Sequence record: NC_028831.1
Length of the DNA: 61,235 nucleotides
Reading direction: 5' to 3' (one strand)
From: Escherichia phage slur01
Each line of letters opens with the position of its first letter. Position 1 is the stretch's first letter. A program made the translations under genes and the position numbers. Shown piece after piece: positions 4,009-61,235 of this stretch. The notes under the pieces were generated by a model that was given only the letters and a program-made list of their open reading frames with translations, had not been told where the DNA came from and searched no databases.

Positions 4009-4800
4009 TTACAGTTTGTCTTTGAACTCTTCGATATATTGCTCGATCGGATACTGCTTACGCTTGAAACGATCAAACAAGATTTTAGCAGATTCTACGT
4101 CTTCGTCGCTCTCTTTACTTGCGCCCGGTGCCATAAAATCACGCCATGTAAAACCGTTCAGATTATGCATCTTAGCGATGTGCTTGTTGTAACGGCTTTC
4201 CCAGTCCACACGCGGACCTTCCATCTTGCGTAAACCGCGCCCAAGCACCTGTACATACAAATCTTTCTGACGTTGTACAGCTTCACCATTATAAGGTCCG
4301 GTTTTAAACTCAACAACACTACCGTTAAGATCTGCACCATCCGCAAAGTTGTGTAGCATAGTTTCAATAACGTCATTCAATGTTGGAACCGTCACTTTGC
4401 CCTGGGCAATGCCTGCCAAATAACCGACGTTTTCTTCACCGTACAACTCGATCAGTTCTTTCTTGGTTGCTTCTGCTTCTTTGTTTGCGGACAAAGCCAA
4501 CATCTGTTGTTCGAACATGTGTTCCTGTTCCAGGAAGTGAGCATAGCGCTCTTCGTCTACTTTGCACACAATCCATTTATATTCAACATCCTTGCTGAAG
4601 TCCGGATACTGATCTACTTCTACTACTTCCGTAGTAAAGAACTTGCCGTTATATTGAATAACAACTGTATCGCCCGGCTGCAATTCGTCACTTTCCAGAG
4701 CACGGTAGGTATAAAGACGGCCACCTGCTTCAAACTTAACTTTGACAGTTACAACGCCTTTTAACAGAGCATGATAAGCTTTCTGAAATTCTTTACGCAT
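4009..4800 (-). CDS. hypothetical protein
   Basis: 263-aa ORF with RBS AGAGGA; no motif recognised. Confidence 0.6.
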   Translation of the reverse strand: MRKEFQKAYHALLKGVVTVKVKFEAGGRLYTYRALESDELQPGDTVVIQYNGKFFTTEVVEVDQYPDFSKDVEYKWIVCKVDEERYAHFLEQEHMFEQQMLALSANKEAEATKKELIELYGEENVGYLAGIAQGKVTVPTLNDVIETMLHNFADGADLNGSVVEFKTGPYNGEAVQRQKDLYVQVLGRGLRKMEGPRVDWESRYNKHIAKMHNLNGFTWRDFMAPGASKESDEDVESAKILFDRFKRKQYPIEQYIEEFKDKL

Positions 4801-4841
4801 TTTAGTTTCCTCTTGGGCGGATTGACCGCCCGTTAATGTGG

Positions 4842-5252
4842 TTAGGCTTTATTCGGCACAATTTCCAGAGACGCGGAACCAACTTTTGATTCAACGCACT
4901 GGTTAAAGACTGCGGCTTGCTCCGCTGTAAGTTTACGCCAAGCCGCAACTTTCAACACAGGTTTATTTTCCACAAGCTGATCAACGTTAACACCAACTTT
5001 AATCAGATCGCCCAGGATTCCGTTAAGGCTTGGAAGATCAATCTTGCGATCAATCTTGTGTGTCATTTTCATAACCCCGCCAGTAATTTCAACTTTATTA
5101 GTCCCTTCTGATGGAGCAGGGAAATAGGACTTAATAATCTTTTCGCGTAGTGCTCGCTCGCGAGCTTGAAGCTTTTGTAATTCTGCTTTGGTTTTATACC
5201 ACTCAATAACATCTGCTTCGGTTGCTTGTACTGCTTTATCTGCGTCGAACAT
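4842..5252 (-). CDS. hypothetical protein
   Basis: Start re-picked at internal ATG (MFDADKAVQ...) preceded by AGAGGA; the ORF-track start at 5312 lacks an RBS. Confidence 0.5.
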   Translation of the reverse strand: MFDADKAVQATEADVIEWYKTKAELQKLQARERALREKIIKSYFPAPSEGTNKVEITGGVMKMTHKIDRKIDLPSLNGILGDLIKVGVNVDQLVENKPVLKVAAWRKLTAEQAAVFNQCVESKVGSASLEIVPNKA

Positions 5253-5493
5253 TTTTCTATCCTCTGTTGTGTTTCGATGTATGTATAATAGCACATCCAT
5301 GTGACAGGGCAAGACTCAATTTGTATCAATTAATCTTTTTAAACGGATTAGTAATCTAGCAACCTTCCTCCATTCGGCATCCTCCATTAATGGTGAAGGC
5401 TTATACGCTTCAGGTATCGGACAAGGTATATAGGGTTCCATGTCAGATATTACTTGCTTTGATAACTTTTTCTTCCGTTTACCCATAAATAGC

Positions 5494-6147
5494 CTATTTC
5501 AAATAGCGGGAAGTCATAATTGGATGCAAAGACACTTCTTCCTCAGATGTAACCACATCAGTCGCAGGTACAAAGTTGTTGGACTGCTCGTCTCCAAGTT
5601 TCCACCCTTTGCCGTTACCCTTTTTAAGTTCGCCCGTACCAGTGGACCCAAAGCCATTGGCACCGCGCTCAGTGCTCTTAAGCTCGTCCACTTCTACCAG
5701 TTGCACGCTGGGCAGCTTAATAAGCATAGCTTGCGCAATGCGATCACCATGATTGACAGTAAAACTACCATCGTTATCAATAGTAATCTTAACCTTAAGT
5801 TCCCCAGTGTAGTCGCTATCAATGACGCCCACGCAGTTTGCCAAACGCACGTCATTTTTGAATCCGTGCCCGCTACGGGAATAGACCATAAGCGCGTAAC
5901 CTTCAGGAATATCAAACGCTAACCCTGTGCGGAATATGTGCTCGTAAGAGAAAATAATTTGCTCACATCCATCTTCACTTTTAAGATCCGCGTGCAGGTC
6001 AAAGCAAGCAGCCCCAGCACTGGCAAACGATGGCAGGATTGCGGTGTCTGTTAAGCGTTTTACCCCTAACCGCTTGCAAGGTCTATGGGAAAGAATGTTA
6101 CTCTTTACACCTACATTTCGCATTTCGCTAATAATAATATCCTTCAT
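5494..6147 (-). CDS. dut: dUTP diphosphatase (dUTPase)
   Basis: dUTPase motifs AGAACFDL, RSGHG, GVIDSDYTGE, GDRIAQ and GFGSTG in canonical order; RBS AGGTG. Confidence 0.85.
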   Translation of the reverse strand: MKDIIISEMRNVGVKSNILSHRPCKRLGVKRLTDTAILPSFASAGAACFDLHADLKSEDGCEQIIFSYEHIFRTGLAFDIPEGYALMVYSRSGHGFKNDVRLANCVGVIDSDYTGELKVKITIDNDGSFTVNHGDRIAQAMLIKLPSVQLVEVDELKSTERGANGFGSTGTGELKKGNGKGWKLGDEQSNNFVPATDVVTSEEEVSLHPIMTSRYLK

Positions 6148-6156
6148 AATTTCACC

Positions 6157-6624
6157 TTATTGGATTGAACCGCGATCAATTAACCATTGTTTCGCGTGCG
6201 CTTTAAAAATAATGCGGTAGTCATCAAGACTAATTTCCGCGCGGATGGAATCTTTAACTTCATACCACTGCCATTCACCATTACTGAAGACAACTGGGTT
6301 AAGTGGCAAAACAACCTTCCATCCTTTACGTTCTATTTTATACATCAGAACTGGATATCTGCCAAGCTCTTTAGCAGATTGAACAGTCTGCTTCCACCAT
6401 GTGTTTACTTGTGGCGTAGCGTGGTTTTTTACTTCAACCGCATGGTGGCATGTATTGCTAATGTCGCAACCACCGACCGCACTTTGATTCTGGTTACGCT
6501 GAGCAATAGGTTTTTCCGGTAACTGCATCCCCAGCTCTGCGTAAATTTCGGCATAAATTGCATTAAAGAAATCACATACTTCCCGCTCACCGCGTTGACC
6601 TTTAGCGCGAATATTTACTGCCAT
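6157..6624 (-). CDS. Putative PD-(D/E)xK nuclease, Hjc-like Holliday junction resolvase
   Basis: N-terminal GQRGEREV and downstream VEVK resemble the Hjc/archaeal resolvase catalytic core; start re-picked at ATG with GGAG RBS (track uses a GTG at 6654). Confidence 0.45.
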   Translation of the reverse strand: MAVNIRAKGQRGEREVCDFFNAIYAEIYAELGMQLPEKPIAQRNQNQSAVGGCDISNTCHHAVEVKNHATPQVNTWWKQTVQSAKELGRYPVLMYKIERKGWKVVLPLNPVVFSNGEWQWYEVKDSIRAEISLDDYRIIFKAHAKQWLIDRGSIQ

Positions 6625-6696
6625 GTTTGTCTCCATAACTTTAATGTAAAACACTTCATAAAGAATTTTATATTAAAGTTATGTTGATCGCAAGGA

Positions 6697-6729
6697 ACAA
6701 AAAAGCCCAGGCATAAGGATTCCTGGGCT
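6697..6729 (-). terminator. Rho-independent terminator (minus strand)
   Basis: Stem GCCCAGG/CCTGGGC followed by TTTTTTGTT on the minus strand. Confidence 0.6.
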
Positions 6730-7040
6730 CTCTTGATTGTCGGATAGCTTACTTTGACTGCCGTCTTCGTCTATCCTGGCCTACTTGTACAGCCTCGCCA
6801 AAGGCTGGTGACGGTTTGGTACATCTGGCGCCGTCGCGTTAAACATCGTTCACATCGTTCAGTAAGTTGCGGGTTTACCCTGTCCGCTCCAGGAAGCCTA
6901 GCGAAAGTAGTTGCTGTAAGGAGGTACAGCTACCGCTTTCAAGGGCTGAGTTAAGCATCGTTCACTAAGTTAATGTTGTTAAATTGTTAAACCTCGTTAA
7001 CTGTGGTTATCTTAAAGGATGCAGTCTTGAATGGCAAGCT

Positions 7041-7346
7041 TCAATTTTGCGCGGTTCCCTTTGCCGCTTTTGGTGCTAAAGTACCATCATTTAACATCAA
7101 CTCAAAACCTTGTACTTCATAAGTTGGAACAATAGCATAGCCCATGATTGTAAGTACAATAGATTCATCCTCACGACGCGGATAATAAATATGACACCAA
7201 TGAGGAAAAGCATTGTCGTGACGAATCTCTGCATAAGTTTTATGATCAACCAAAATCTTTTGGATTTGGTTATTGTCCTCATTATTTACATTTTCACGGA
7301 TAAGCTCCGCATAAATTGCTTCACAGATAGTATTTACAATGCTCAT
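7041..7346 (-). CDS. hypothetical protein
   Basis: 101-aa ORF with strong RBS GGAGGTG. Confidence 0.55.
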   Translation of the reverse strand: MSIVNTICEAIYAELIRENVNNEDNNQIQKILVDHKTYAEIRHDNAFPHWCHIYYPRREDESIVLTIMGYAIVPTYEVQGFELMLNDGTLAPKAAKGTAQN

Positions 7347-7585
7347 TTTAACACCTCCAACGGACGAAGTAGTTTATAGTGATTTGTTGCAACCCCGCCA
7401 GTGTTATTATATTTCTTCATAACACTGATGAACCCTTTTTGCCGAAGACTTCTTATACAGCTTGATATCATTGTCTGTTGCAATCCTGTAATTTTAGCCA
7501 ATTTTGCATAACTTATGACAATCTCGTTATTAACACGAGGAGCAAATTTTAATGCTTTATATACTAAAATATCATAAGGACACAT
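7343..7585 (-). CDS. Small winged-helix/HTH DNA-binding protein
   Basis: HTH-like segment ISYAKLAKITGLQQTMISSCIRSLRQKGF; start re-picked at ATG preceded by GAGGTG (track ORF runs to 7759 with no RBS). Confidence 0.45.
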   Translation of the reverse strand: MCPYDILVYKALKFAPRVNNEIVISYAKLAKITGLQQTMISSCIRSLRQKGFISVMKKYNNTGGVATNHYKLLRPLEVLK

Positions 7586-15749: not shown

Positions 15750-15989
15750 ATGCGTTTAAAGTATAAGCAAAAGATTGTAGAATACTTCGGGATGCAACTT
15801 GTTGTCCCTGAATGGGTTAAATGGCTTGCTGTCGATGGTGATGGGGAGCTGTACGGTTACGAATGCGAGCCTGATATCTTAGTTGATGAACCGTGGGACG
15901 AATGGTACACAGAAGAAGGTAAATGTTACCGCATTACAGAAGTAGTTCTTGAAGAACATTGGTCTGAAACCTTAGTGGAGCTTTTCTAA
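15750..15989 (+). CDS. hypothetical protein, small paralog family member
   Basis: Shares W-x-AVDGDG...Y-x-x-x-P and W...TL motifs with 16333..16629 and 55631..55885. Confidence 0.55.
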   Translation: MRLKYKQKIVEYFGMQLVVPEWVKWLAVDGDGELYGYECEPDILVDEPWDEWYTEEGKCYRITEVVLEEHWSETLVELF

Positions 15990-47552: not shown

Positions 47553-47580
47553 ATATTAAAACAGACCCGCGAAGGGTCTG
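47553..47580 (-). terminator. Rho-independent terminator after the DNA polymerase gene (minus strand)
   Basis: CAGACCC-GCGAA-GGGTCTG hairpin followed by TTTTAATAT on the minus strand. Confidence 0.7.
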
Positions 47581-47590
47581 CAAGTAGAAT

Positions 47591-49576
47591 TTAGGCGTAT
47601 CCCATGTCTTCGAGATACTTCTCTGCTTTAGCTATATAAGCATCATAATCTATGTCGTCCGGTATTTTATCCGGTAGCGTCATAATCGGGACGCCTCCCG
47701 CGCTACCAGCTACACGGTTGCCCGAGTTAGCATAGATTATTTCAGGTGTTTCTTCATTAGTGCTTAAGTACCAGCGTACAACCTTACCCAAAAATTCGCC
47801 ATTCCATACCGCGCCACCTTTTACCGCACGTAGGATAATGAATTTTCTAATATCGTTGCAATTGCGTATAGTACGAGAAACAGGCGTACCGTGGGCCAAA
47901 CATTCACATACAGCTTCCATAATGATCTCACCAGTACAGTTCTTTTGAAGACCTGTCTTTGCGAACCACCCTTTACGTTTAATTTCAACATTTCCTTCCT
48001 CGTCAGGTTCTTTTACTGCAACATAGTTATTGACGTTAGCGCTGTACAGCTTGTCATAGTAGTTGGACTCCATTACAAAACCTGTTACGGATTCCCACCA
48101 CTTGATCATATTATCAACGAAGTCCTGCATGTGGTCCGGATACTTAAGCACAATGCCGTCCGTGTTGGCTGAAATTACTTTAACTCCGTTCAGCTCAAAC
48201 GCTTCAATAAGCATTAACAGCGATAACTGCCCAGTTAATGTAACTTGTATCAATAATTGCGGAGCGTACAGTACAGACCACATTGATCCCAACTTACCGA
48301 ACGATCCGTTGATTACGATCTTCAGAGTATTGGCTGTGTTCTTGTCCCCTGACTGCTTAGCTGCAATACGGCGGTCTACAATGCTTTTATAAACACGAAG
48401 AAACGCTGGTCCCAACTGTTCTGGATATAAGCCCTGATTAAGAATGATTGTAGGATAATAAGACGTTACGTCAATGTCCCGCTTTTTGATACCAGGCTCT
48501 TTACCGTGGCCAGCACACTCTTCGGAGCTGTGCAAACCACCAATACCCATACGGTAGACACCGTCCGCAATCTTGATCTCAAGACCTGTTAATGCAGGAG
48601 GTAAGCTGACACCACCGTTATCGCTAACAATAAAGCGACAGTCCCGAACAATATCCAAAACACTATTCATCAGAGGTGTTTGAAAACGAATAAAGTCCGG
48701 TATGTTATATGCATATTTAGTTCCAGGATAAACTTGTGGACGCTGCGGACGCACGCCCGTTAACGCTTGAATTTCGTGTTTAATCACGTCTTCTGCAATC
48801 TGCGCATCAGAACGTGAACGCAGATCCACACCGTATTCTTTCGACATAATTTCACGAAGATGTAAAGGTTCCTGTAATGCAATAAAACATTCTTCCGTCT
48901 GTACAAGGTCGTTAATACAGTACCAGCGTACAATCAACATCTGGTCCTGCGTCAGCATTGTATTTGGCTTGAACGGTAAATCCTGCATACGGCGAGTATG
49001 TACACGTCCGCCATATTGTTTCAAACCACCGGACCCAGGCAGCACTTCCATAATATCGATGTGGTTAACGTTCTGCATACGCTTGAGACGGTAACTCTTC
49101 AATACATCCGAAGGACGCCAGTCTTCAACGATTATTTTATCAGTTGCGTCTTTAAGCTGAGCATTAGAGCAGCCGTTAAGCGCAAGCGTAGCAATGGGCA
49201 TATCGTACCCGTTACCGTTAAAGCTTACGATAAGGAAGTTTGTCATTACCCAGTTAAGTAATAAGCAATTCAAACTACAACCGTGATACATCTCGAAGTA
49301 GACAACTTTCTTAGTTCGCACTCCGCGAAATGCAATTAAGAAATAATTTGGATAACATTCTATATCATATACAAGCGGTTCGCGGTTAATCCATGCTTGA
49401 ATAAGTTCGTCCTGTGTGTACAGGTTGTATTGGAAGTTCCGCGCTTCCTCAAGGTTAGGCAAATAATCCGGGCGCTCCCAAGTTCGCTCCGGCGGTAAAC
49501 GTTTAACCTTTTCTTTCTTTGCTTTTGGCTCAGGCGGTAAGTCCTGCCAAAAGAAACCAATAGCATCTGTCCGCAT
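47591..49576 (-). CDS. DNA polymerase with N-terminal 3'-5' exonuclease domain
   Basis: Exo-I-like YDIECYPNYF; polymerase motifs DVTSYYPTII, KIVINGSFGKLG, ANTDGIVL; start chosen at ATG overlapping the upstream stop (TAATG). The track ORF extends to 49630. Confidence 0.85.
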   Translation of the reverse strand: MRTDAIGFFWQDLPPEPKAKKEKVKRLPPERTWERPDYLPNLEEARNFQYNLYTQDELIQAWINREPLVYDIECYPNYFLIAFRGVRTKKVVYFEMYHGCSLNCLLLNWVMTNFLIVSFNGNGYDMPIATLALNGCSNAQLKDATDKIIVEDWRPSDVLKSYRLKRMQNVNHIDIMEVLPGSGGLKQYGGRVHTRRMQDLPFKPNTMLTQDQMLIVRWYCINDLVQTEECFIALQEPLHLREIMSKEYGVDLRSRSDAQIAEDVIKHEIQALTGVRPQRPQVYPGTKYAYNIPDFIRFQTPLMNSVLDIVRDCRFIVSDNGGVSLPPALTGLEIKIADGVYRMGIGGLHSSEECAGHGKEPGIKKRDIDVTSYYPTIILNQGLYPEQLGPAFLRVYKSIVDRRIAAKQSGDKNTANTLKIVINGSFGKLGSMWSVLYAPQLLIQVTLTGQLSLLMLIEAFELNGVKVISANTDGIVLKYPDHMQDFVDNMIKWWESVTGFVMESNYYDKLYSANVNNYVAVKEPDEEGNVEIKRKGWFAKTGLQKNCTGEIIMEAVCECLAHGTPVSRTIRNCNDIRKFIILRAVKGGAVWNGEFLGKVVRWYLSTNEETPEIIYANSGNRVAGSAGGVPIMTLPDKIPDDIDYDAYIAKAEKYLEDMGYA

Positions 49577-50529
49577 TAGACACGTTCTCCAATTAATACA
49601 CCGCGAAGATTTTCCCCAAAGAATGCACAAGGTTGCGGATATAAACTAAAGTCCGCAGTCTTAACCACATTTTCGAGTAATAACAGGATGTCGATATTGT
49701 AAACTCCTGTTATTGATCTGTCCTGCAATACGAAGCTTGCACCTTCTGCATCATCGTAATGAGTACGTGCTAGACCGTTTTCAATATATACGCGAGGACG
49801 ATCTTCCGCAAACGGTTTGATTTTATGCAGACCCTCAAAAAGTCCTGGATCAACAGGATGTGCATTGCATTGAACATTTAAAATACGACGTATATCAGGC
49901 CACTCCGCATCAATAAGCTGTGTCCGCAACCAGCGACCTTCCGGATAATGAAACGTGACATTGTTCTTGCTAACCTGAATATGTGTCGGGTTAGATTTAA
50001 TACGCAGTATTTCTTTAATAGCAACAGACGGTATTATGCAGTCAATAGGGAATTGATTACCGAACCAATATTCCGCAATGGTGACGTTATTTGTAGCAAA
50101 CAGGCTACCGTTATTAATCAGAATACCGCAAGCCCACGGGCGGGATGCATCTGAGCCTACAAACGGAGCAACGGACTTCACACCGTGTACGAAGCGAGCA
50201 CCGTCTATTTCGTATAACTCCCCTTCAGGGAATACGTGAGGCGTTTCCTTGTCAATGCAGCGTATAGCAACACGAAAAGGCCCGGACTTGATATTAAGTT
50301 TACCGTTAGCCATCATTGTTAGCTGCACTGTTTCATCGCAGTTCGAAATAGCTTTAATCATAGGGCCAGCTTCGGGCTTGCAATCAATATCCAGCTCAAT
50401 AGGGCTACCCAGTGCAATAACACCGTTAAAGCCCTGTACCTGTCCGTCACGAATAAGAAAACTGGTAAGCCCTTCTACCAGTTCCTTTTTAGCGACCGAG
50501 CCTTGAACAAATTTAAGAGCGTCTAACAT
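49576..50529 (-). CDS. hypothetical protein, possibly sliding-clamp-like processivity factor
   Basis: 317 aa, translationally coupled to the DNA polymerase gene; N-terminus loosely resembles beta-clamp starts. Confidence 0.3.
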   Translation of the reverse strand: MLDALKFVQGSVAKKELVEGLTSFLIRDGQVQGFNGVIALGSPIELDIDCKPEAGPMIKAISNCDETVQLTMMANGKLNIKSGPFRVAIRCIDKETPHVFPEGELYEIDGARFVHGVKSVAPFVGSDASRPWACGILINNGSLFATNNVTIAEYWFGNQFPIDCIIPSVAIKEILRIKSNPTHIQVSKNNVTFHYPEGRWLRTQLIDAEWPDIRRILNVQCNAHPVDPGLFEGLHKIKPFAEDRPRVYIENGLARTHYDDAEGASFVLQDRSITGVYNIDILLLLENVVKTADFSLYPQPCAFFGENLRGVLIGERV

Positions 50530-50756
50530 TAGCGGTCCTCGATTGCTCTAATTGTGGTTAAATCTAATTCACAGGTTGGAGGGTATCCATAAAGTCCAAT
50601 TTGTTTTCCTTGTGCATTAAACCATGTACCTGACGGATCCTGCCACTGCTTAGGTGTCTTGTGGAGAAATACTACTCTGTTTTCACCGTAATAATTAATT
50701 CTTACACCTGTGTGAGTATATTTACGTTTACCTTTTGGTCTTCTTAAGTTAGCCAT
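50529..50756 (-). CDS. hypothetical protein
   Basis: 75-aa basic ORF coupled between dpdA and the downstream gene. Confidence 0.45.
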   Translation of the reverse strand: MANLRRPKGKRKYTHTGVRINYYGENRVVFLHKTPKQWQDPSGTWFNAQGKQIGLYGYPPTCELDLTTIRAIEDR

Positions 50757-51676
50757 CAGAACAACTCCATTACACGATCACGGAATGTGCCGTCATGGGT
50801 GGCGTTAATGTTTGCAGCAATTACACCATACGCCCATAAGTTGAAGGCAGCACGTGATTCATAGATTGTTGATAAACGTTCGTAAGTGAAACCGTTTTGC
50901 TCAAGGTATTTAAGGACAGCGTCTTGTTCAATTTCAGTTAATGTTGAAACATGCTTACCAAAATGGTGGCGGTCCGGCGACTTATCTGATACGCGCATTG
51001 GGCCCCACGGAGGAGTAACCACACTTCCAAACGCTGCTGCTTGAATCCAGGAGGATGAGTCACAGCTATACCACGGATAACGCTCCATAATGGTTGTGGA
51101 CGTAATACCAAACGCATGAAGTTTAATCTTAGCACGTCCGCTACCGTCGCAAATATATTTGTCCCACATGCGGTCAAGCCAAGTTTTAAGCGTGTCTGTG
51201 GAACGCCCTACCATGCCACCGATGGTGATATATTCGTAGTTCTTCATGTAGTATTCAAGATAGCGGAAGTCCTCCCCAAAGTGAAAGCAAGGTAACGGTT
51301 TAGCACCGCGTGCTTCCATTTCAAGTTGGTTACGGTAGGTTTGCAACGGATCACCGATACCATCGAGCACCGACGCCATTACTGCGCCATCTTCTACGCG
51401 AAGGATGTCTTTGTTGCGCTTGATGTATTCGCAGTATTCAACAATATCAATGTGAGCACCTAACGAGTGCGCGGAGAATGCACCGGAGTCGAGAAACACT
51501 TTAGCCCCGTCCGCACGCATCTGATCGACATACTTCTGACGCCCAACGTAGTGGTATGATTCCAAAATATGGGGCAGATTGCGCGTGATATTTTTCTCAT
51601 GCTCAGACAGCTTTTCATAACGCTGCTGGCCAGGCATATAGCCGTTAGTATACACAGCCGCCATGAATACATTCAT
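50756..51676 (-). CDS. dpdA: DpdA-like DNA-guanine transglycosylase (TGT superfamily)
   Basis: 306 aa with FLDSGAF and ITIGGMVGRS segments, encoded next to the folE-queD-queC-queE cluster; RBS GGAGG. Confidence 0.6.
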   Translation of the reverse strand: MNVFMAAVYTNGYMPGQQRYEKLSEHEKNITRNLPHILESYHYVGRQKYVDQMRADGAKVFLDSGAFSAHSLGAHIDIVEYCEYIKRNKDILRVEDGAVMASVLDGIGDPLQTYRNQLEMEARGAKPLPCFHFGEDFRYLEYYMKNYEYITIGGMVGRSTDTLKTWLDRMWDKYICDGSGRAKIKLHAFGITSTTIMERYPWYSCDSSSWIQAAAFGSVVTPPWGPMRVSDKSPDRHHFGKHVSTLTEIEQDAVLKYLEQNGFTYERLSTIYESRAAFNLWAYGVIAANINATHDGTFRDRVMELF

Positions 51677-51697: not shown

Positions 51698-51736
51698 ACT
51701 AAAAAGCCCATACCAGTATTATGACCGATATGGGCT
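51698..51736 (-). terminator. Rho-independent terminator (minus strand)
   Basis: AGCCCATA...TATGGGCT hairpin followed by TTTTTAG on the minus strand, downstream of the HNH gene. Confidence 0.55.
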
Positions 51737-51755
51737 TGATCTGTAAAGCTATCTA

Positions 51756-52214
51756 TTATTTAAAATTAGCTTTCTTAGTTTCGCTAATTTTACGTTTGGT
51801 TTCCTCTGTATGATGTTTCCCGTACATTGGATTCAGTTCACCATATTTTTGATACATTGGGTTATCTTTCCCAAACCGTGGACGTGTCCTTGCCCTCCCT
51901 CTAACTTTCTTATCCAACCCGTTTTGTTTTTGATCTCCTAAATATAAATGATCTGGGTTAATGCAAGACGGATTATCACATGTATGCAGAACGCACCCTG
52001 TAGCGGAATCAGGTAAACCAATTTCTCCTTTGTACAGTTTATAGCTCTCGCGATGCGCAAAACTAAAAATTCGTTCACCTTTGGAACCACTAATCATTCT
52101 ACCGTAACCGTCTTTATCCTTACTACCAGTCCAGTTCCAGCAACCAGTAGAAGGGTCTATAACGTATTTGCTTAGTCTTTCGGACATCGGCTTTTTAGTA
52201 TAGACCCTTGGCAT
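51756..52214 (-). CDS. HNH homing endonuclease
   Basis: GCWNWTGSKDKDGYGRM and HTCDNPSCINPDHL HNH_3-type motifs; inserted between folE and dpdA. Confidence 0.75.
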   Translation of the reverse strand: MPRVYTKKPMSERLSKYVIDPSTGCWNWTGSKDKDGYGRMISGSKGERIFSFAHRESYKLYKGEIGLPDSATGCVLHTCDNPSCINPDHLYLGDQKQNGLDKKVRGRARTRPRFGKDNPMYQKYGELNPMYGKHHTEETKRKISETKKANFK

Positions 52215-55630: not shown

Positions 55631-55885
55631 TTAAACCTCCGTTAATGTTTGAGTCCAGTCTAAGCCTTCAAGATCTACATCAGCTATTTCATCGTACTCG
55701 TAAGCTTCCGGATCTGCTGGCAACCATCTATCAAAGCGATGGCTAAGTTCTGGAGGAATTGCTTCATACCCCCAAACCTTCCCATCCTTGTCGGCTGCCA
55801 GATAATCAACTCGACTTGGAACGGTTAAAGTGACACCACAAAAATTAACATCTTTAGTATGCACAACCTGGCTTAACACACGCAT
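55631..55885 (-). CDS. hypothetical protein, small paralog family member
   Basis: YLAADKDGKVWGYEAIPPE...DLEGLDWTQTL matches the family at 15750..15989 and 16333..16629. Confidence 0.5.
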   Translation of the reverse strand: MRVLSQVVHTKDVNFCGVTLTVPSRVDYLAADKDGKVWGYEAIPPELSHRFDRWLPADPEAYEYDEIADVDLEGLDWTQTLTEV

Positions 55886-56606: not shown

Positions 56607-56634
56607 TGAAAAAGAAAGCGCCTCATTGGGCGCT
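56607..56634 (-). terminator. Rho-independent terminator (minus strand)
   Basis: AAGCGCC-TCATT-GGCGCTT hairpin followed by CTTTTTC on the minus strand. Confidence 0.6.
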
Positions 56635-56661
56635 TTCATTATAACGTGATATGTTTTGATA

Positions 56662-57465
56662 TTACAAGCCGTTCAGGGCTTCCGGTACTGGCATAGGTAC
56701 GCGACCAGTTACACCATTAAACTTCTTCCAACGTGCATACTGAGTTTTAACGGTATCTTCGTTCAGACCGTGGCGACCAGCCAGATTCAGAACATAAGAG
56801 ATCGGAGCAGGCTGACCCAGCGTAGCGCTAATCTGATCCATCAGAGCCCAGGCACGACCGCAGGAAGTTTCAGGTTGTGGACGACGAACACCATTCTGTT
56901 CAGGCATACGGTTCGCTTCTTTCGCTTTTTCACGTTCAGCTTTTTCGCGGGCTTTTTCAGCAGCCTTTTCAGCCTGTTTAGCAGCGCGGATCTTGTCTTT
57001 GAAGCCTTTGATAAACGAATCCAGTTCGTCAACCATGCTCTGAGCAGCACTTACTGCACCGGACAGATCTTCATCTTTGGATTTTTTAACAACTGCTTTC
57101 AGCTCTTTCAGTTTATTCTTAAAAAGCTTCAGCTGTTCAGAACCCTGAAATTCAGCTACCGTAATCTCTTCAATAGTGCCTTTATCGGCAACATCGGATA
57201 AAACAGACCTCACGGTTTCAACTCCGCGGGAAAGAGCGGTAAATTTATTTTCCGCTACAGCACGAATTTCAGCTTGTTTCTTTTCAGCGGCAGCTTTTTT
57301 CTCTGCTTCTTTTTTCTCTTTTGCTACGCGTGCAGCTTCAGCGGCAGCGGCTTTTTTAGCTTCTGCATCGTTAGCAGTAACTTCTTTCTTTGCAGGCTTA
57401 GCAGATTTTGCAGCGGCAGCAGCGGCTGCGGCAGCAGCGGCTTTCTTATCTTCAATATTACTCAT
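56662..57465 (-). CDS. Ala/Lys-rich histone-H1-like protein with a globular C-terminal domain
   Basis: N-terminal AAAAAAAAAAKSAKPAKK and AEKKAAAEKK repeats; start re-picked at ATG with GGAG RBS. Confidence 0.55.
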   Translation of the reverse strand: MSNIEDKKAAAAAAAAAAAKSAKPAKKEVTANDAEAKKAAAAEAARVAKEKKEAEKKAAAEKKQAEIRAVAENKFTALSRGVETVRSVLSDVADKGTIEEITVAEFQGSEQLKLFKNKLKELKAVVKKSKDEDLSGAVSAAQSMVDELDSFIKGFKDKIRAAKQAEKAAEKAREKAEREKAKEANRMPEQNGVRRPQPETSCGRAWALMDQISATLGQPAPISYVLNLAGRHGLNEDTVKTQYARWKKFNGVTGRVPMPVPEALNGL

Positions 57466-58146: not shown

Positions 58147-60123
58147 TTAGAAAGGAACGTAATCCGGATCGTCTACTTGCACAGGGTTAACCACATTGTT
58201 CACCGTTATACCTTGCGTATTCTGCGAAACAATATCGTCCCAACTTACATCATCGTTATAGCTCGGACCTTCTGTTGTTCCATCCTGACCGTATACTTTA
58301 ACCTGAATAGCTTCGTCGTCCTGTGGAGCTTCAAACTTACCGAAACAAGTACCGTCATAATCATAGTTCAATATCTCAGGCCATTTCTTATTGGTATGAA
58401 CTTTGATGTATTTTGGTGTTTTAAGCATTGCAGCAACATCAAGAGCTTCTTCAATAGTTTGTGGTAAAGGTAAATGTGTCCTTTTCTTCCACCATGCGAC
58501 AGCTTTACGACCTGCCCAGTCCCCATGAAGCAGAGCTACCCATTCACTGAATATTTTACTACCGCAATAATAAGTCACCTTCATTGTTGGAGGTTTAGAG
58601 CTGTCATTGCGTTTAGTATGCTTTGCATAAGTAACATGCGTAACTTTGAAGTCTTCAACTACTGGAATATCCTGCTTGATCAGGGCTTCCGTACTTGCAG
58701 CTTTCTTGAGTTTGGTCTGGAACTTAAACTCATGACCGCAAAAGCCTTCTTTAACGTAATCCGTCCCGCGTAGCCTAAATCCTTTCAGATATAATTGTTG
58801 AACTTGTTCCTGTGTGACGCTGTCCATTGGGATTGGTGCGAAGCCACCGCAATAGCGAGCGGATGCATGATTATACGACCCACATACATCGCATTCTTTA
58901 ACCGGAGCAGTGCCAGCACCTTTTTCGCCCGGGCGCTTGGGTTTAACAGGGTCGTTAATAGGGCCCAAACGGCGCGTATTACCGCTGAAATCCAGTACAA
59001 GGCAGTTCTGCTTGGGGCTTGCCGCAATAGCTTGTAAGCGTCCCTCCTGCGTGGAAAGATCAAAGCCCTCCGCGTACACCGGACGCGTACCGCGACCCAG
59101 CATCTGAACCCATAGCACCGCCGACGCAGTGGGACGGAGCATGATAATTAAGTCCAGCATTGGATGATCAAAACCTGTGGTTAAGACGTTATTGTTAGTT
59201 AATGCTCGAAATTCACCGCGCTTGAATTTTTCAATAATCTCGTCACGTTCTTTTGCATCAAGCTTAGAGTGAATACATCCACAGCTAATACCCATATCGT
59301 TCAGCATATCGCACGCGTCTTTAGCGTGTTCAATGCCAGAACAAAATATAAGCCAGCTTTGACGGTCTTCACCACATTCAATTGCTTCCTCAAGTGCGCG
59401 GAGTGTTGCGTCATCGCGGTTTACCGCACTTTGCAGCTCACTCTGAATAAATTCACCGCCGCGTTTACCTACCCCGTTGAGGTCTAGTTCCATCTTAGTA
59501 CGCTTTGGCACAACCGGAAGAAGATAACCTTGTTCCAGAAACCAGTTGAAGGCTTCCGGAGTAGTTGCATCAAACGTTACCTTATCAAATAACGCATCAT
59601 CGTCTTCGTTTTCCTTAACAATTGAACCATACCCCAGTCGATAAGGTGTAGCAGTAAGACCGATGATTTTTAAGTAAGGGTTAACTTCACGCAACGCTGC
59701 AAAGAACTTCTTATACATTGTTGCATCACGCGGACTAATAAGATGCGCTTCGTCCACAAAAATAAGATCAACTTTGCCGAACTTTTTCGGATGCTTAGCA
59801 ACGGACGCAATTCCTGCAAAGGTAATAAGATTGTAGACTTCTTTACGCTTCAAACCCGCGCTGTAAATACCTGCTGGCGCTTCGGGCCAGACTTTCATTA
59901 ATTTATCATAGTTTTGTGCAATTAACTCTTTGACGTGAGTTAACATCATTACGCGCTGGTTTGGATACCATTTGTAAAGCAGATCGAGGAACCCCGCGAT
60001 AACGAGCGATTTTCCTGTCCCTGTTGGTAACAGGATCAAAGGGTTCCCCGCGTTACCCTTTTCAGCATCAAAATAGCGGAATACGCTATAAACTGCTTCC
60101 TGTTGATAATCTCTTAATTTCAT
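58147..60123 (-). CDS. Superfamily-2 DEAH-box DNA helicase with C-terminal extension
   Basis: Walker A LLPTGTGKS, DEAH box FVDEAHLIS, motif III GLTATPYR, motif VI QMLGRGTR; about 250 extra C-terminal residues with Cys cluster CDVCGSYNHASARYCGG. Confidence 0.85.
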   Translation of the reverse strand: MKLRDYQQEAVYSVFRYFDAEKGNAGNPLILLPTGTGKSLVIAGFLDLLYKWYPNQRVMMLTHVKELIAQNYDKLMKVWPEAPAGIYSAGLKRKEVYNLITFAGIASVAKHPKKFGKVDLIFVDEAHLISPRDATMYKKFFAALREVNPYLKIIGLTATPYRLGYGSIVKENEDDDALFDKVTFDATTPEAFNWFLEQGYLLPVVPKRTKMELDLNGVGKRGGEFIQSELQSAVNRDDATLRALEEAIECGEDRQSWLIFCSGIEHAKDACDMLNDMGISCGCIHSKLDAKERDEIIEKFKRGEFRALTNNNVLTTGFDHPMLDLIIMLRPTASAVLWVQMLGRGTRPVYAEGFDLSTQEGRLQAIAASPKQNCLVLDFSGNTRRLGPINDPVKPKRPGEKGAGTAPVKECDVCGSYNHASARYCGGFAPIPMDSVTQEQVQQLYLKGFRLRGTDYVKEGFCGHEFKFQTKLKKAASTEALIKQDIPVVEDFKVTHVTYAKHTKRNDSSKPPTMKVTYYCGSKIFSEWVALLHGDWAGRKAVAWWKKRTHLPLPQTIEEALDVAAMLKTPKYIKVHTNKKWPEILNYDYDGTCFGKFEAPQDDEAIQVKVYGQDGTTEGPSYNDDVSWDDIVSQNTQGITVNNVVNPVQVDDPDYVPF

Positions 60124-60626
60124 AAAGGTCTCACTGTTCCATGATTCTTGTTAAACCCGTATGTAATTTCAGCCTCTTTTCTTGTCTTTATTGCGTCTTG
60201 TAGACTTTCAAAATAACCAAGATGCAGCCGAATACCGTATACATCAATTTGAGCTTTCCATTTCTTATTTGCCTTAGCCCATGTCACTCCAGGACAACCG
60301 CTCTTATTATTCGATGGTAGTTTTCTATTATGGTTGTTATGGTATTTATTACTTTTATTTAGATTAGTTTTCCAATTATGCGTACCATCACCATCATCAT
60401 GATCAATATATTCAGGTTCTTCATCATAGAGCATTTTCCAGATTATACGGTGTGCGTAATAATTAAGACCGTTCATAAAAACCATAATATAGGTTTTACC
60501 ATGATTAAAAGTAACTTCACTCCCTGCAATTTGACCGTTATGGTTCCAAAATAAGTTACCGCTATCTTCGCTATAGCTAAAAATCCTATTGAGTTCTTCT
60601 TGCGTCGGTAACGGCAACCTTTTCAT
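60120..60626 (-). CDS. HNH homing endonuclease with C-terminal AP2 domain
   Basis: HNH segment HRIIWKMLYDEEP...IDHDDGDGTHNW and AP2 segment SGCPGVTWAKANKKWKAQIDVYGIRLHLGYFESLQDA; start at ATG (track uses a TTG at 60632). Confidence 0.7.
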   Translation of the reverse strand: MKRLPLPTQEELNRIFSYSEDSGNLFWNHNGQIAGSEVTFNHGKTYIMVFMNGLNYYAHRIIWKMLYDEEPEYIDHDDGDGTHNWKTNLNKSNKYHNNHNRKLPSNNKSGCPGVTWAKANKKWKAQIDVYGIRLHLGYFESLQDAIKTRKEAEITYGFNKNHGTVRPL

Positions 60627-60628
60627 AA

Positions 60629-61235
60629 TCAATCTTTCCCGTAATAATTAGCTACTTGATAGTTTTGACAACCAACTTTCTGTCCTTGCGTATCCACTGC
60701 GGCGGAATGGAAATTGCAATACCATGTTCCATCTTCTTTTGGTTCAAGGAATTGACATGTGCGGCAGTTTACTTCCGGCATAGTTTTACGCCAGCATAGT
60801 GAGGAGTGATCGCACCATTTACATTCGAAGAAAGTGGAATCTTTAAATGCGCGGTCCGGAATATCTGTAGCAATAGCAATCTGCACACCACGATCAATAT
60901 ACATGTCCGCGGTAACAGGATCAAACGGAATAATTTCTGCGTAAACTTCATCGTCATTCTTGTTTACAGCAAGATATAACGCTGCGCCAAGACCTAGTTT
61001 TCGCATGTACACGTTCATCTGTACATAGTGCTCAGGTTTGGCTTCTTTAACACCTTTAGCTTTCAGCTTTTTAAAAGACTTATCGTTATGCGTCTTCATT
61101 TCGGTGAGCACAGGCATCCCAGGCTGCACGTCCGGACAACCTATAACCACACCATCGCAGGAACCGCCAAAGTGTCCGCCAGCTTCGCTGATACGGAACT
61201 GGTGTCCATTTTCGTCCTGCTGATAGACCTGCATA
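60629..61235 (-). CDS. 3' part of the YqaJ/lambda-Exo-like PD-(D/E)xK exonuclease (5' part at 1..429 across the junction)
   Basis: In frame with the 1..429 segment through the terminal repeat; C-terminal Cys cluster CKWC...CWRK...CRTC; total about 302 aa. Confidence 0.7.
   Translation of the reverse strand, partial: MQVYQQDENGHQFRISEAGGHFGGSCDGVVIGCPDVQPGMPVLTEMKTHNDKSFKKLKAKGVKEAKPEHYVQMNVYMRKLGLGAALYLAVNKNDDEVYAEIIPFDPVTADMYIDRGVQIAIATDIPDRAFKDSTFFECKWCDHSSLCWRKTMPEVNCRTCQFLEPKEDGTWYCNFHSAAVDTQGQKVGCQNYQVANYYGKD
61109..61235. repeat. 127-bp terminal direct repeat, identical to 1..127
   Basis: Exact identity with the first 127 bases of the window. Confidence 0.9.

What the first reader, a model, noticed from the sequence alone, without database searches (positions are those of the whole stretch)
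49576..50756. Two unassigned genes translationally coupled between dpdA and the DNA polymerase
A 317-aa and a 75-aa ORF link dpdA to the polymerase through overlapping stop/start codons (TAATG). This implies co-expression and possibly physical coupling of replication and base exchange. The larger one might be a clamp-like processivity factor or a DpdA partner.
Basis: inference. Interest (0 to 1): 0.45.

Follow-up and report, generated by a model that had tools for sequence, protein, structure and literature searches.

The report
Phage sliding clamp plus small orphan gene
The larger gene encodes the phage's own ring-type DNA sliding clamp for the neighbouring polymerase, which close relatives already annotate. 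The small gene is a lineage-specific accessory gene of unknown function. The one new lead is that the DNA-modifying enzyme DpdA carries a conserved tail that looks like a clamp-docking peptide.

Summary
On the minus strand, dpdA (50756-51676), a 75-aa ORF (50529-50756), a 317-aa ORF (49576-50529) and a family-B polymerase (47591-49576) are joined by 1-nt stop/start overlaps. These read TGATG, TAATG and TAATG, not TAATG throughout.

The window is a CAjan-like Seuratvirus. The 317-aa protein is a DnaN-type three-domain beta-clamp (PHROG 947, E 8e-82; AF2 pLDDT 92.6; Foldseek TM 0.82-0.85 to bacterial DnaN). CAjan already annotates it as a processivity factor, so it is not "unassigned". The polymerase carries an invariant N-terminal R-x-D-x-h-G-h-F-W peptide, probably its clamp-docking motif.

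The 75-aa protein is a real but fast-evolving basic ORFan found only in Seuratvirus. It sits in a variable slot that is empty in 43 of 74 related loci and holds unrelated small ORFs in others. It is therefore not a core partner of either enzyme.

The new lead is that DpdA ends in a conserved [IV]-Q/M-[ED]-L-F-COOH tail resembling validated clamp-binding motifs. LF tails go with clamp-gene neighbours; tail-less actinophage DpdAs sit beside ParB-like genes. Tethering of DpdA to a clamp is plausible (about 0.4) but untested.

The parts
49576..50529 (-). orf317: phage DnaN-type (beta) sliding clamp, 317 aa, three domains
   Evidence: phrog_947 'DNA polymerase processivity factor' E 8e-82 over the full length. 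TIGR00663 dnaN E 8e-9 and Pfam DNA_pol3_beta_2 E 9e-5, both below their curated cut-offs. AF2 pLDDT 92.6, pTM 0.86, with six main helices, two per domain. Foldseek PDB top 50 are all bacterial DnaN, E 1e-20, TMq 0.82-0.85. hhalign to E. coli DnaN gives probability 83.5% over domains I-II. 99% identical to CAjan gp33.
50529..50756 (-). orf75: Seuratvirus-specific small basic protein (75 aa, pI 9.9), function unknown
   Evidence: phrog_38388 (unknown function) E 1e-57; no Pfam or NCBIfam hit. Only 8 clusters in 5.8 billion proteins and 6 hits in 1.84 billion representatives. dN/dS 0.08 against STP-SP5 shows a real coding gene, but amino-acid identity is 80% against 89-94% for its neighbours. The AF2 model is unusable, pLDDT 53. 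Truncated variants exist in Seurat and in metagenomic contigs.
50756..51676 (-). dpdA: 7-deazaguanine DNA transglycosylase (306 aa), upstream neighbour
   Evidence: phrog_887 E 8e-96. 100% identical to CAjan DpdA, whose role in dPreQ0 insertion is published (PMC7544227, PMC6884629).
50759..50773 (-). DpdA C-terminal tail V-M-E-L-F-COOH: candidate clamp-binding motif
   Evidence: In 69 unique DpdAs at 51-100% identity, the last residues are L 68/68, F 66/68, Q53/M8 at -3 and E53/D5/G5 at -2, after a variable segment. 59 of 69 end exactly at F. Function is inferred only.
47591..49576 (-). Family-B DNA polymerase (661 aa from the ATG at 49576)
   Evidence: phrog_1252 E 1e-226. Weak NCBIfam Pol II / PolB hits. 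CAjan gp32 is annotated 'DNA polymerase (B)'.
49547..49573 (-). Polymerase N-terminal peptide R-T-D-A-I-G-F-F-W (residues 2-10): candidate clamp-docking motif followed by a K/P-rich linker
   Evidence: R, D, G, F and W are invariant in 47 of 47 unique N-termini from 70 loci; positions 5 and 7 are hydrophobic. PaMx25 reads DALGLFW. Function is inferred only.
50754..50758 (-). dpdA stop / orf75 start overlap, TGATG
50527..50531 (-). orf75 stop / orf317 start overlap, TAATG; GAGGA 6 nt upstream at 50536-50540
49574..49578 (-). orf317 stop / polymerase start overlap, TAATG; GGAG 10 nt upstream at 49587-49590
47561..47581 (-). Terminator-like hairpin (8 bp stem, 5 GC pairs, T-rich tail) 10 nt after the polymerase stop: probable end of the transcription unit
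   Evidence: This is a pattern match only; terminator-like sites overall number 14 against 10.4 expected.

Best explanation
The block dpdA-orf75-orf317-polB is the distal end of the early/middle operon of a CAjan-like Seuratvirus. orf317 encodes the phage's own beta-type (DnaN-like, three-domain) sliding clamp. By analogy with bacterial beta, it presumably forms a head-to-tail dimer around DNA. It serves as the processivity factor of the family-B polymerase encoded immediately downstream. That polymerase most likely docks on the clamp through its invariant N-terminal R-x-D-x-h-G-h-F-W peptide, which is held on a flexible Lys/Pro-rich linker. orf75 is a non-core, lineage-specific accessory gene: small, basic, beta-rich and fast-evolving. 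It occupies a variable insertion slot at the dpdA/clamp junction and is simply co-translated with its neighbours. The 1-nt overlaps reflect the compact, translationally coupled organisation typical of this operon. Shown here: the ORFs, the overlaps, clamp homology and fold, synteny, motif conservation, and the narrow distribution of orf75 with purifying selection on it. Inferred: ring formation, clamp-polymerase docking through the N-terminal peptide, actual translational coupling, and any function for orf75.
For: Clamp identity comes from PHROG 947 at E 8e-82, a high-confidence AF2 model and Foldseek top hits that are all DnaN, with TMq 0.82-0.85. BFVD shows many phage beta-clamps with the same fold, and hhalign to E. 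coli DnaN is significant. The family occurs in 360 phage records, widely annotated as a replicative clamp. The clamp gene directly precedes the polymerase gene in every genus examined: Seuratvirus, Nonagvirus, Nipunavirus, Amoyvirus, Vidquintavirus, Lokivirus and Septimatrevirus. This includes phages without a dpdA annotated in the fetched regions (Halfdan, PaMx42), so its primary partner is the polymerase. The junction overlaps in 43 of 69 loci. The polymerase N-terminal motif is invariant at 5 of 9 positions in 47 unique sequences. It resembles QL[SD]LF, the CBM consensus given in PMC9690074 and PMC12867686. For orf75: it has 8 homolog clusters, all Seuratvirus-level; dpdA abuts the clamp gene directly in 43 of 74 loci; the 78 gap ORFs from the other loci fall into 68 unrelated clusters; and dN/dS is 0.08.
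Against: The clamp scores below the curated thresholds of Pfam and TIGRFAM dnaN models. Its identity to solved clamps is only 15-18%. No clamp loader was detected among the window ORFs tested, so how the ring would get onto DNA is open. No biochemical data exist for any member of this phage clamp family in the papers searched. The polymerase N-terminal motif lacks the canonical Gln. For orf75, 'accessory' is a conclusion from distribution, not from any functional evidence. Its conserved 1-nt overlap with dpdA, even in yong3 where another ORF separates it from the clamp gene, could hint at a DpdA link.
Confidence: 0.8

Rival explanations
1. Extension rather than strict rival. The clamp is also the platform for DpdA. 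DpdA's conserved C-terminal [IV]-Q/M-[ED]-L-F-COOH tail would be a clamp-binding motif that tethers the transglycosylase to the phage clamp, to the host beta clamp, or to both. Guanine-to-preQ0 exchange would then occur on freshly replicated DNA just behind the fork. The dpdA-clamp-pol gene order would reflect this three-way functional unit.
For: The tail is conserved at the extreme C-terminus after a variable segment in 69 unique DpdAs. A second DpdA clade (Dp-1/Flasso-like, 38-99% identity) keeps x-L-F-COOH in 24 of 25 unfused members, with a DnaN gene 11-3,400 nt downstream in 23 loci. In Flasso both DpdA (QGKLF-COOH) and Pol I (N-terminal QNSLF) carry QxxLF. Seven DpdA homologs without an adjacent clamp gene lack the tail; the actinophage ones sit next to ParB-like genes instead. 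Bacterial DpdA needs DpdB, a ParB-like ATPase modelled as encircling DNA (PMC10164549). Validated phage CBMs include QHDLF, QPDLF and a minimal DLF (PMC12867686). The published docking of dsDNA to CAjan DpdA needed a protein change or duplex melting (PMC7544227). phiSM DpdA lacks the tail and was inactive when expressed alone (PMC10516641). No paper in the library links DpdA to a clamp.
Against: 9g DpdA with Gat-QueC modifies 9-18% of plasmid G in E. coli with no phage clamp present (PMC6884629), so the phage clamp is not required for catalysis; the host beta clamp might substitute. The two LF-tailed clades probably inherited the tail from a common ancestor, so the correlation rests on very few independent events. 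The Gln is displaced by one position relative to QL[SD]LF. The spacing F(-8), V/I(-4), L(-1), F(0) also fits an amphipathic helix that could pack on DpdA itself. dpdA may sit beside the clamp gene only because the que cluster abuts the replication module. No structure or binding test could be run.
Confidence: 0.4
2. orf75 is a dedicated DpdA partner, for example a specificity or DNA-handling factor explaining CAjan's two target motifs, GA and GGC.
For: It is always immediately downstream of dpdA with a 1-nt overlap, including in yong3, where a second ORF separates it from the clamp gene. It is basic, with a Lys/Arg-rich N-terminal arm. CAjan DpdA modifies two motifs (PMC7544227), whereas phage iggy's DpdA has a strict GA motif (PMC10484667 abstract).
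Against: It is absent from all other genera that carry orthologous DpdA. Truncated or frameshifted copies exist in isolates such as Seurat. It has no detectable domain. It evolves much faster than DpdA: 31% against 90% identity to yong3.
Confidence: 0.1
3. orf75 is a small clamp-binding modulator, acting on the phage clamp or inhibiting the host beta clamp, through an internal Q-[IML]-G-L motif (residues 52-55, QIGLY).
For: Q52 and G54 are invariant among the six close homologs, and the motif resembles QL[SD]LF. From my own knowledge, small staphylococcal phage proteins that target host DnaN are described in the literature.
Against: The fifth position is Y, N, R or G, so it is not a conserved aromatic residue. 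The motif is lost in the yong3 homolog. It lies in the least conserved, indel-rich part of the protein. This is pure pattern matching.
Confidence: 0.06
4. The overlaps carry no specific regulatory meaning. The four genes are adjacent and overlapping only because of genome compaction, with independent translation from their own SD sites.
For: About half of all junctions in this operon overlap. Each gene has its own SD-like site. In relatives both junctions are often opened by inserted ORFs without loss of the core genes.
Against: The clamp/pol overlap is the most frequent state across divergent phages (43 of 69). dpdA/clamp overlaps or abuts in 43 of 74. This suggests some selective maintenance of tight linkage.
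Confidence: 0.3

Closest known systems
Bacterial beta sliding clamp DnaN (E. coli beta, PDB 1MMI/2POL family)
   Same: Three structurally repeated domains per chain, with two helices per domain. A conserved A-T-[DN]-[GN] strand aligns with E. coli A-T172-D-G174. The C-terminal end resembles that of beta: relatives end ...GMRL, and I recall E. coli beta ending ...PMRL. PMC2685083 (abstract) states that the last five residues of beta are needed for both hydrophobic clefts. The gene is encoded next to its polymerase.
   Different: 317 aa rather than 366. Only 15-18% identity. Below the Pfam and TIGRFAM curated cut-offs. Partners a family-B polymerase rather than Pol III. No cognate clamp loader was found in the phage.
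Phage T4/RB69 gp45 clamp with gp44/62 loader (from my own knowledge; T4 late-transcription role cited in PMC2988020)
   Same: A phage-encoded processivity clamp for a phage family-B polymerase. The clamp also serves non-replicative clients (T4 late transcription).
   Different: gp45 is a PCNA-like trimer of two-domain subunits with a dedicated loader. This protein is a DnaN-like three-domain chain, and no loader was detected.
Phage Mu MuC/Mor clamp-binding motifs (PMC12867686)
   Same: A phage protein that is not a polymerase uses short terminal motifs (QHDLF, QPDLF, minimal DLF) to bind the beta clamp and couple its activity to replication. The DpdA tail ([ED]-L-F-COOH) matches the validated core.
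   Different: MuC binds the host clamp and acts in transcription. For DpdA the binding is only inferred, and the client would be a base-exchange enzyme.
Bacterial Dpd system, DpdA with DpdB (PMC10164549)
   Same: The same transglycosylase family. The bacterial enzyme depends on a second, DNA-associated protein, a ParB-like ATPase modelled as encircling DNA.
   Different: No DpdB or ParB-like gene lies next to dpdA here. The neighbour is a replicative clamp. Phage 9g DpdA works without DpdB in E. coli (PMC6884629).
DNMT1-PCNA and UNG2-PCNA tethering in eukaryotes (from my own knowledge)
   Same: This is the conceptual analogue for the novel reading: a DNA-modifying or base-excising enzyme recruited to the sliding clamp by a short motif so that it acts on newly replicated DNA.
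   Different: A different clamp, a different motif (PIP box) and different enzymes. No homology is implied.

Membership tests
PHROG 947 (phage DNA polymerase processivity factor / beta-clamp-like) | Full-length profile match | tested here: met
   E 8.1e-82, residues 1-317 on profile positions 12-365 of 368
DnaN beta sliding clamp (Pfam DNA_pol3_beta / _2 / _3; TIGR00663) | Score above the curated family threshold | tested here: not met
   PF02767: 23.1 bits against a cut-off of 27, central domain only. TIGR00663: 34.9 bits against 137.65. It is a distant relative, not an equivalog of bacterial DnaN.
DnaN beta sliding clamp | Three topologically equivalent domains, each with two helices backed by beta-sheets | tested here: met
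   AF2 pLDDT 92.6 with six main helices in three repeats. Foldseek top 50 PDB hits are all DnaN over about 355-370 aligned columns, TMq 0.82-0.85.
DnaN beta sliding clamp | Head-to-tail homodimer forming a closed ring around DNA | not testable with these tools
   Only monomer prediction was available.
DnaN beta sliding clamp | Hydrophobic client-binding cleft between domains II and III, including the C-terminal residues | tested here: inconclusive
   Family-invariant residues S142, A145-N148, R309, G310 and G314 lie in segments that align with, or resemble, the cleft-lining A-T-D-G strand and C-terminus of E. coli beta. Domain III was not aligned by hhalign and no coordinates were available.
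DnaN beta sliding clamp | Loaded by an AAA+ clamp loader | tested here: inconclusive
   No loader-like PHROG or Pfam hit among the 30 larger window ORFs scanned. Use of the host loader cannot be tested.
Clamp-binding motif (QL[SD]LF class) in the polymerase | Short conserved terminal peptide with hydrophobic-x-[small or acidic]-[LFM]-F, on a flexible linker | tested here: met
   R-x-D-[AS]-[ILV]-G-[LFM]-F-W, invariant at 5 positions in 47 unique sequences and followed by a variable K/P-rich stretch. Actual binding was not tested.
Clamp-binding motif in DpdA | Conserved terminal [SDE]-L-F preceded by a variable linker and co-occurring with a clamp | tested here: met
   with negative controls. 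The canonical Gln at position 1 is shifted, and binding was not tested.
Clamp-binding motif in DpdA | Physical binding to the clamp cleft | not testable with these tools
   No complex prediction or experiment was possible.
PHROG 38388 (orf75 family, unknown function) | Full-length profile match | tested here: met
   E 1.2e-57, residues 1-75 of 75. The family has no annotated function.

The most novel reading that the evidence does not exclude
Phage DpdA would be a client of the sliding clamp. Its conserved C-terminal [ED]-L-F-COOH tail would dock into the clamp's client cleft, in competition or alternation with the polymerase's N-terminal G-h-F-W peptide. 7-deazaguanine base exchange would then be mechanically coupled to the replication fork. 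This would parallel the dependence of bacterial and actinophage DpdA on ParB-like (DpdB) DNA-encircling partners. DpdA enzymes in general would then need a sliding, DNA-encircling helper, and two unrelated helpers would have been recruited.
Probability: 0.35. Interest if true: 0.7.

Novelty: already known. Interest (0 to 1): 0.4.

Why it matters
As stated, the finding is ordinary. The large ORF is an already annotated phage beta-clamp, and the small one is one of many lineage-specific ORFans. The follow-up yields one testable idea of wider interest. How phage DpdA finds and opens its target guanines, and reaches 25-32% replacement of G without the DpdB ATPase that the bacterial enzyme requires, is unexplained in the papers read here (PMC6884629, PMC7544227, PMC10164549, PMC10516641). 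A clamp-docking tail on DpdA would give a concrete mechanism: recruitment to newly replicated DNA. It would be a first bacterial-virus analogue of clamp-tethered DNA modification. It can be tested with the CRISPR-Cas9 editing and nanopore or LC-MS read-outs already established for CAjan. The invariant N-terminal peptide of the polymerase is likewise a simple handle for studying an uncharacterised clamp/PolB pair that appears to lack its own loader.

Tried and rejected
- **orf75 family searches.** Pfam and NCBIfam gave no hit. PHROG gave only unknown-function families.
- **orf75 profile search.** A profile search of 1.84 billion representatives gave 6 hits. Two of them are repeat-protein noise: P0130 and P0131, a beta-hairpin-like repeat.
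- **orf75 structure.** AF2 on the 6-sequence alignment gave pLDDT 53, so no fold search was run.
- **orf75's most distant homolog.** The context of P0132 is a 713-bp contig and is uninformative.
- **A recurrent gene in the dpdA-clamp gap.** Rejected: 78 gap ORFs fall into 68 clusters.
- **A clamp loader in the window.** None was found.
- **A solved DpdA relative to place the tail structurally.** There was no PDB hit at E <= 0.01.
- **A second ELF-COOH client.** The 79-aa ORF at 15750-15989 ends LVELF. Only three close homologs exist, and the paralogous ORF at 55631-55885 ends WTQTLTEV. The tail therefore looks like part of that fold, and I treat it as coincidence.
- **RNA families.** Rfam gathering scan of the whole window: no hit.
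- **Promoters.** Promoter-like sites are not enriched (22 against 22.5 expected). The site upstream of dpdA at 51718-51747 therefore carries little weight.
- **Clamp-peptide fusion.** I did not submit an artificial clamp-linker-peptide fusion for structure prediction, because the tool is restricted to native window or database sequences.
Full report
**Observation.** The window's minus strand carries four abutting genes: dpdA (50756-51676, 306 aa), a 75-aa ORF (50529-50756), a 317-aa ORF (49576-50529) and a DNA polymerase (47591-49576, 661 aa). The junctions read TGATG, TAATG and TAATG, so each stop overlaps the next ATG by one base. Each start has a GGAG or GAGGA 6-10 nt upstream, inside the preceding gene. 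The ORF lister extends the polymerase to a TTG at 49630. The true start is the ATG at 49576, because a strongly conserved N-terminus (MRxDxxGxFW) begins exactly there in all relatives. A terminator-like hairpin lies 10 nt after the polymerase stop, at 47581-47561. There is no comparable site inside the block. Overlaps of this kind are common in this operon: 10 of 21 consecutive junctions in the CAjan annotation overlap. The overlaps are therefore real but not distinctive.

**Identity of the phage.** The 4.1-kb block is 94-96% identical in DNA to CAjan-like Escherichia phages of the genus Seuratvirus, subfamily Queuovirinae. CAjan replaces about a third of its G with dPreQ0 through DpdA (PMC6884629, PMC7544227). 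In CAjan RefSeq the homolog of the 317-aa ORF (gp33) is annotated "DNA polymerase processivity factor", and gp34, the 75-aa ORF, is "hypothetical protein". Only the small gene is therefore truly unassigned.

**The 317-aa protein is a beta-type sliding clamp.**
- It matches PHROG 947 ("DNA polymerase processivity factor") over its full length at E 8e-82.
- It hits TIGR00663 dnaN and Pfam DNA_pol3_beta_2 weakly, below their curated cut-offs.
- It aligns with E. coli beta at E 0.006 by phmmer and at 83.5% probability by hhalign over domains I-II.
- An AlphaFold2 model built on 42 homologs has mean pLDDT 92.6 and pTM 0.86. It shows three repeats with two helices each.
- Foldseek against the PDB returns only bacterial DnaN clamps in the top 50, at E down to 1e-20, TM 0.82-0.85 and 15-18% identity.
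- Against predicted viral structures it matches many phage "beta clamp" proteins.
- The family is present in 360 phage records and 535 protein clusters.

The clamp gene is followed by the polymerase gene in every genus examined. These include Lokivirus Halfdan and Septimatrevirus PaMx42, which have no dpdA annotated in the fetched regions. Across 69 metagenomic loci the clamp/pol junction overlaps in 43. The clamp is therefore primarily the polymerase's partner.

**How the polymerase probably docks.** In 47 unique polymerase N-termini from 70 loci the peptide R-x-D-[AS]-[ILV]-G-[LFM]-F-W is invariant at R, D, G, F and W. A variable Lys/Pro-rich stretch follows it. PaMx25 reads DALGLFW. The bacterial clamp-binding consensus is QL[SD]LF (PMC9690074, PMC12867686), and from my own knowledge E. 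coli Pol II ends in QLGLF. A short invariant terminal peptide on a flexible linker is the typical format of a clamp-binding motif, so I infer that this is the docking site. No AAA+ clamp loader was detected among 30 window ORFs scanned with PHROGs and Pfam. How the clamp is loaded, whether by the host gamma complex or by itself, remains open.

**The 75-aa protein.**
- It has no Pfam or NCBIfam match and belongs to PHROG 38388, of unknown function.
- It has only eight homolog clusters in 5.8 billion proteins and six hits in a full HMM scan of 1.84 billion representatives. All convincing hits come from Seuratvirus-like contigs.
- It is a real gene: against Salmonella phage STP-SP5 it shows 29.5 synonymous and 18.5 non-synonymous differences, dN/dS 0.08.
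- It evolves faster than its neighbours, with 80% amino-acid identity against 89-94%, and 31% against 64-90% when compared with Hafnia phage yong3.
- It is basic (pI 9.9), with a Lys/Arg-rich N-terminal arm.
- AlphaFold gave an unusable model, pLDDT 53.
- Truncated versions occur in phage Seurat and in metagenomic contigs.

Its distribution also argues against a core role. In 74 related loci, dpdA abuts the clamp gene directly in 43. Elsewhere the gap holds 0-5 small ORFs that are mutually unrelated, 78 ORFs in 68 clusters. JenK1, PaMx25 and R7M have no gene there, Vid5 has three unrelated ones, and yong3 has the orf75 homolog plus another. The best-supported reading is a non-essential, lineage-specific accessory gene sitting in a variable slot. 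It is not a dedicated partner of DpdA or the polymerase. Its biochemical role cannot be assigned. A nucleic-acid-binding role is a guess from its charge.

**An unexpected lead: DpdA's tail.** DpdA here ends ...FRDRVMELF-COOH. In 69 unique DpdAs at 51-100% identity from 77 loci, the last residues are strongly conserved:
- L at -1 in 68 of 68, and F at 0 in 66 of 68;
- Q (53) or M (8) at -3;
- E (53), D (5) or G (5) at -2;
- V, I or L at -4.

Most positions between -15 and -5 vary, except an F at -8 (50 of 68). 59 of 69 proteins end exactly at the F. A clamp gene lies downstream in 74 of 77 loci, and the other three end within 1 kb.

A second, distant DpdA clade (Streptococcus phage Dp-1, Bacillus phage Flasso and 30 metagenomic relatives, 38-99% identity to Dp-1) also ends x-L-F-COOH, in 24 of 25 unfused members. 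Examples are QRRLF, QGKLF, RRTLF and SNRLF. A canonical DnaN gene lies 11-3,400 nt downstream in 23 loci. Flasso's Pol I begins with QNSLF.

By contrast, seven DpdA homologs without an adjacent clamp gene lack any such tail: Qyrzula, Finch, Megan gp2 and gp3, Mufasa8, Epa33 and phiSM. The Qyrzula, Finch and Mufasa8 copies sit beside ParB-like genes.

This dichotomy fits published biochemistry:
- Bacterial DpdA needs DpdB, a ParB-like ATPase modelled as a DNA-encircling dimer (PMC10164549).
- Functionally validated clamp-binding motifs in phage Mu proteins include QHDLF, QPDLF and a minimal DLF (PMC12867686).
- Docking of duplex DNA on the CAjan DpdA model needed protein rearrangement or local melting (PMC7544227).
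- phiSM DpdA, which lacks the tail, was inactive when expressed alone (PMC10516641). Its overlapping downstream ORF ends SVNLF.

No paper in the searchable library connects DpdA with a clamp.

**Limits of that lead.**
- Phage 9g DpdA, with Gat-QueC, modifies 9-18% of plasmid G in E. coli without any phage clamp (PMC6884629). The phage clamp is therefore not needed for catalysis. At most the tail improves targeting, or it uses the host clamp.
- The two LF-tailed clades probably inherited the tail, so the correlation rests on few independent events.
- The Gln is shifted by one position relative to QL[SD]LF.
- The hydrophobic spacing at -8, -4, -1 and 0 could equally be an amphipathic helix packing on DpdA itself.
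- I could not run a complex prediction or a DpdA monomer model.
- I rate clamp tethering of DpdA at roughly 0.35-0.4.

**Verdict.** The clamp guess is right but already in public annotation. Co-expression is plausible but generic. The small ORF is an orphan accessory gene. "Physical coupling of replication and base exchange" remains an untested but now concretely testable hypothesis, based on the DpdA tail rather than on the two ORFs themselves.

Noticed in passing
window 50759-50773 (-); loci L013-L092, L108-L138: DpdA ends in a conserved [IV]-Q/M-[ED]-L-F-COOH tail. The Dp-1/Flasso clade ends in x-L-F-COOH. Both resemble clamp-binding motifs. LF tails go with neighbouring clamp genes, and tail-less actinophage DpdAs go with ParB-like neighbours.
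   Followed up: yes
window 51756-52214 (-): A 152-aa HNH endonuclease gene (phrog_1872, E 4.5e-40) lies between folE and dpdA. CAjan has a 68-aa hypothetical gene (gp36) at that position, so this is probably a homing-endonuclease insertion. A second HNH gene lies at 60120-60632.
   Followed up: partly
window, whole (ORFs scanned): The phage encodes a clamp, a PolB, a primase-helicase, a helicase, a ligase, an RNase H, a DUF669 SSB-like protein, a Sak4-like protein, a RusA-like protein and a Cas4-like exonuclease, but no recognisable clamp loader.
   Followed up: partly
window 15750-15989 (+) and 55631-55885 (-): These are two paralogous small proteins sharing a W-L-A-x-D-x-D-G-x-x-x-G-Y-E motif. 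The first ends ...TLVELF, like DpdA, but the tail appears to be part of the fold and is conserved only in three close homologs.
   Followed up: yes
L095 (Cellulophaga phage phiSM) 3129-4303: phiSM DpdA (240 aa) lacks the LF tail. The overlapping next ORF, CEPG_00052 (154 aa), ends ...SVNLF. A DnaN-like 360-aa gene lies 2.5 kb downstream. The published failure of phiSM DpdA1 expressed alone might reflect a missing partner.
   Followed up: no
L105 (Pseudomonas phage PaMx42) 4375-7598; L104 (Halfdan) 4429-7583: Distant members of the clamp family carry a Lys/Arg-rich N-terminal extension. The PaMx42 clamp ORF ends ...SDDPYSDDIPF, which resembles the tip of the E. coli SSB C-terminal tail as I recall it. 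The PaMx42 polymerase ends ...ELAFF instead of having the N-terminal G-h-F-W motif.
   Followed up: no
L119, L121, L123, L124: Some Dp-1-clade DpdAs are 522-540 aa fusions with an extra C-terminal region ending ...GGF or ...GFNS instead of LF.
   Followed up: no
window 56614-56637 (-) and 56638-56667 (-): The strongest terminator-like hairpin of the region (9 bp stem, 6 GC pairs, T-run) is directly preceded by the best promoter-like site (TTGTAA-18-TATAAT). Both lie upstream of queE and probably mark an operon boundary.
   Followed up: no
L014 8920-9111; phage Seurat (H57/H58): The orf75 homologs are truncated or frameshifted (63, 56 and 51 aa) in some otherwise near-identical genomes. Either the C-terminal third is dispensable or these are sequencing errors.
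   Followed up: partly
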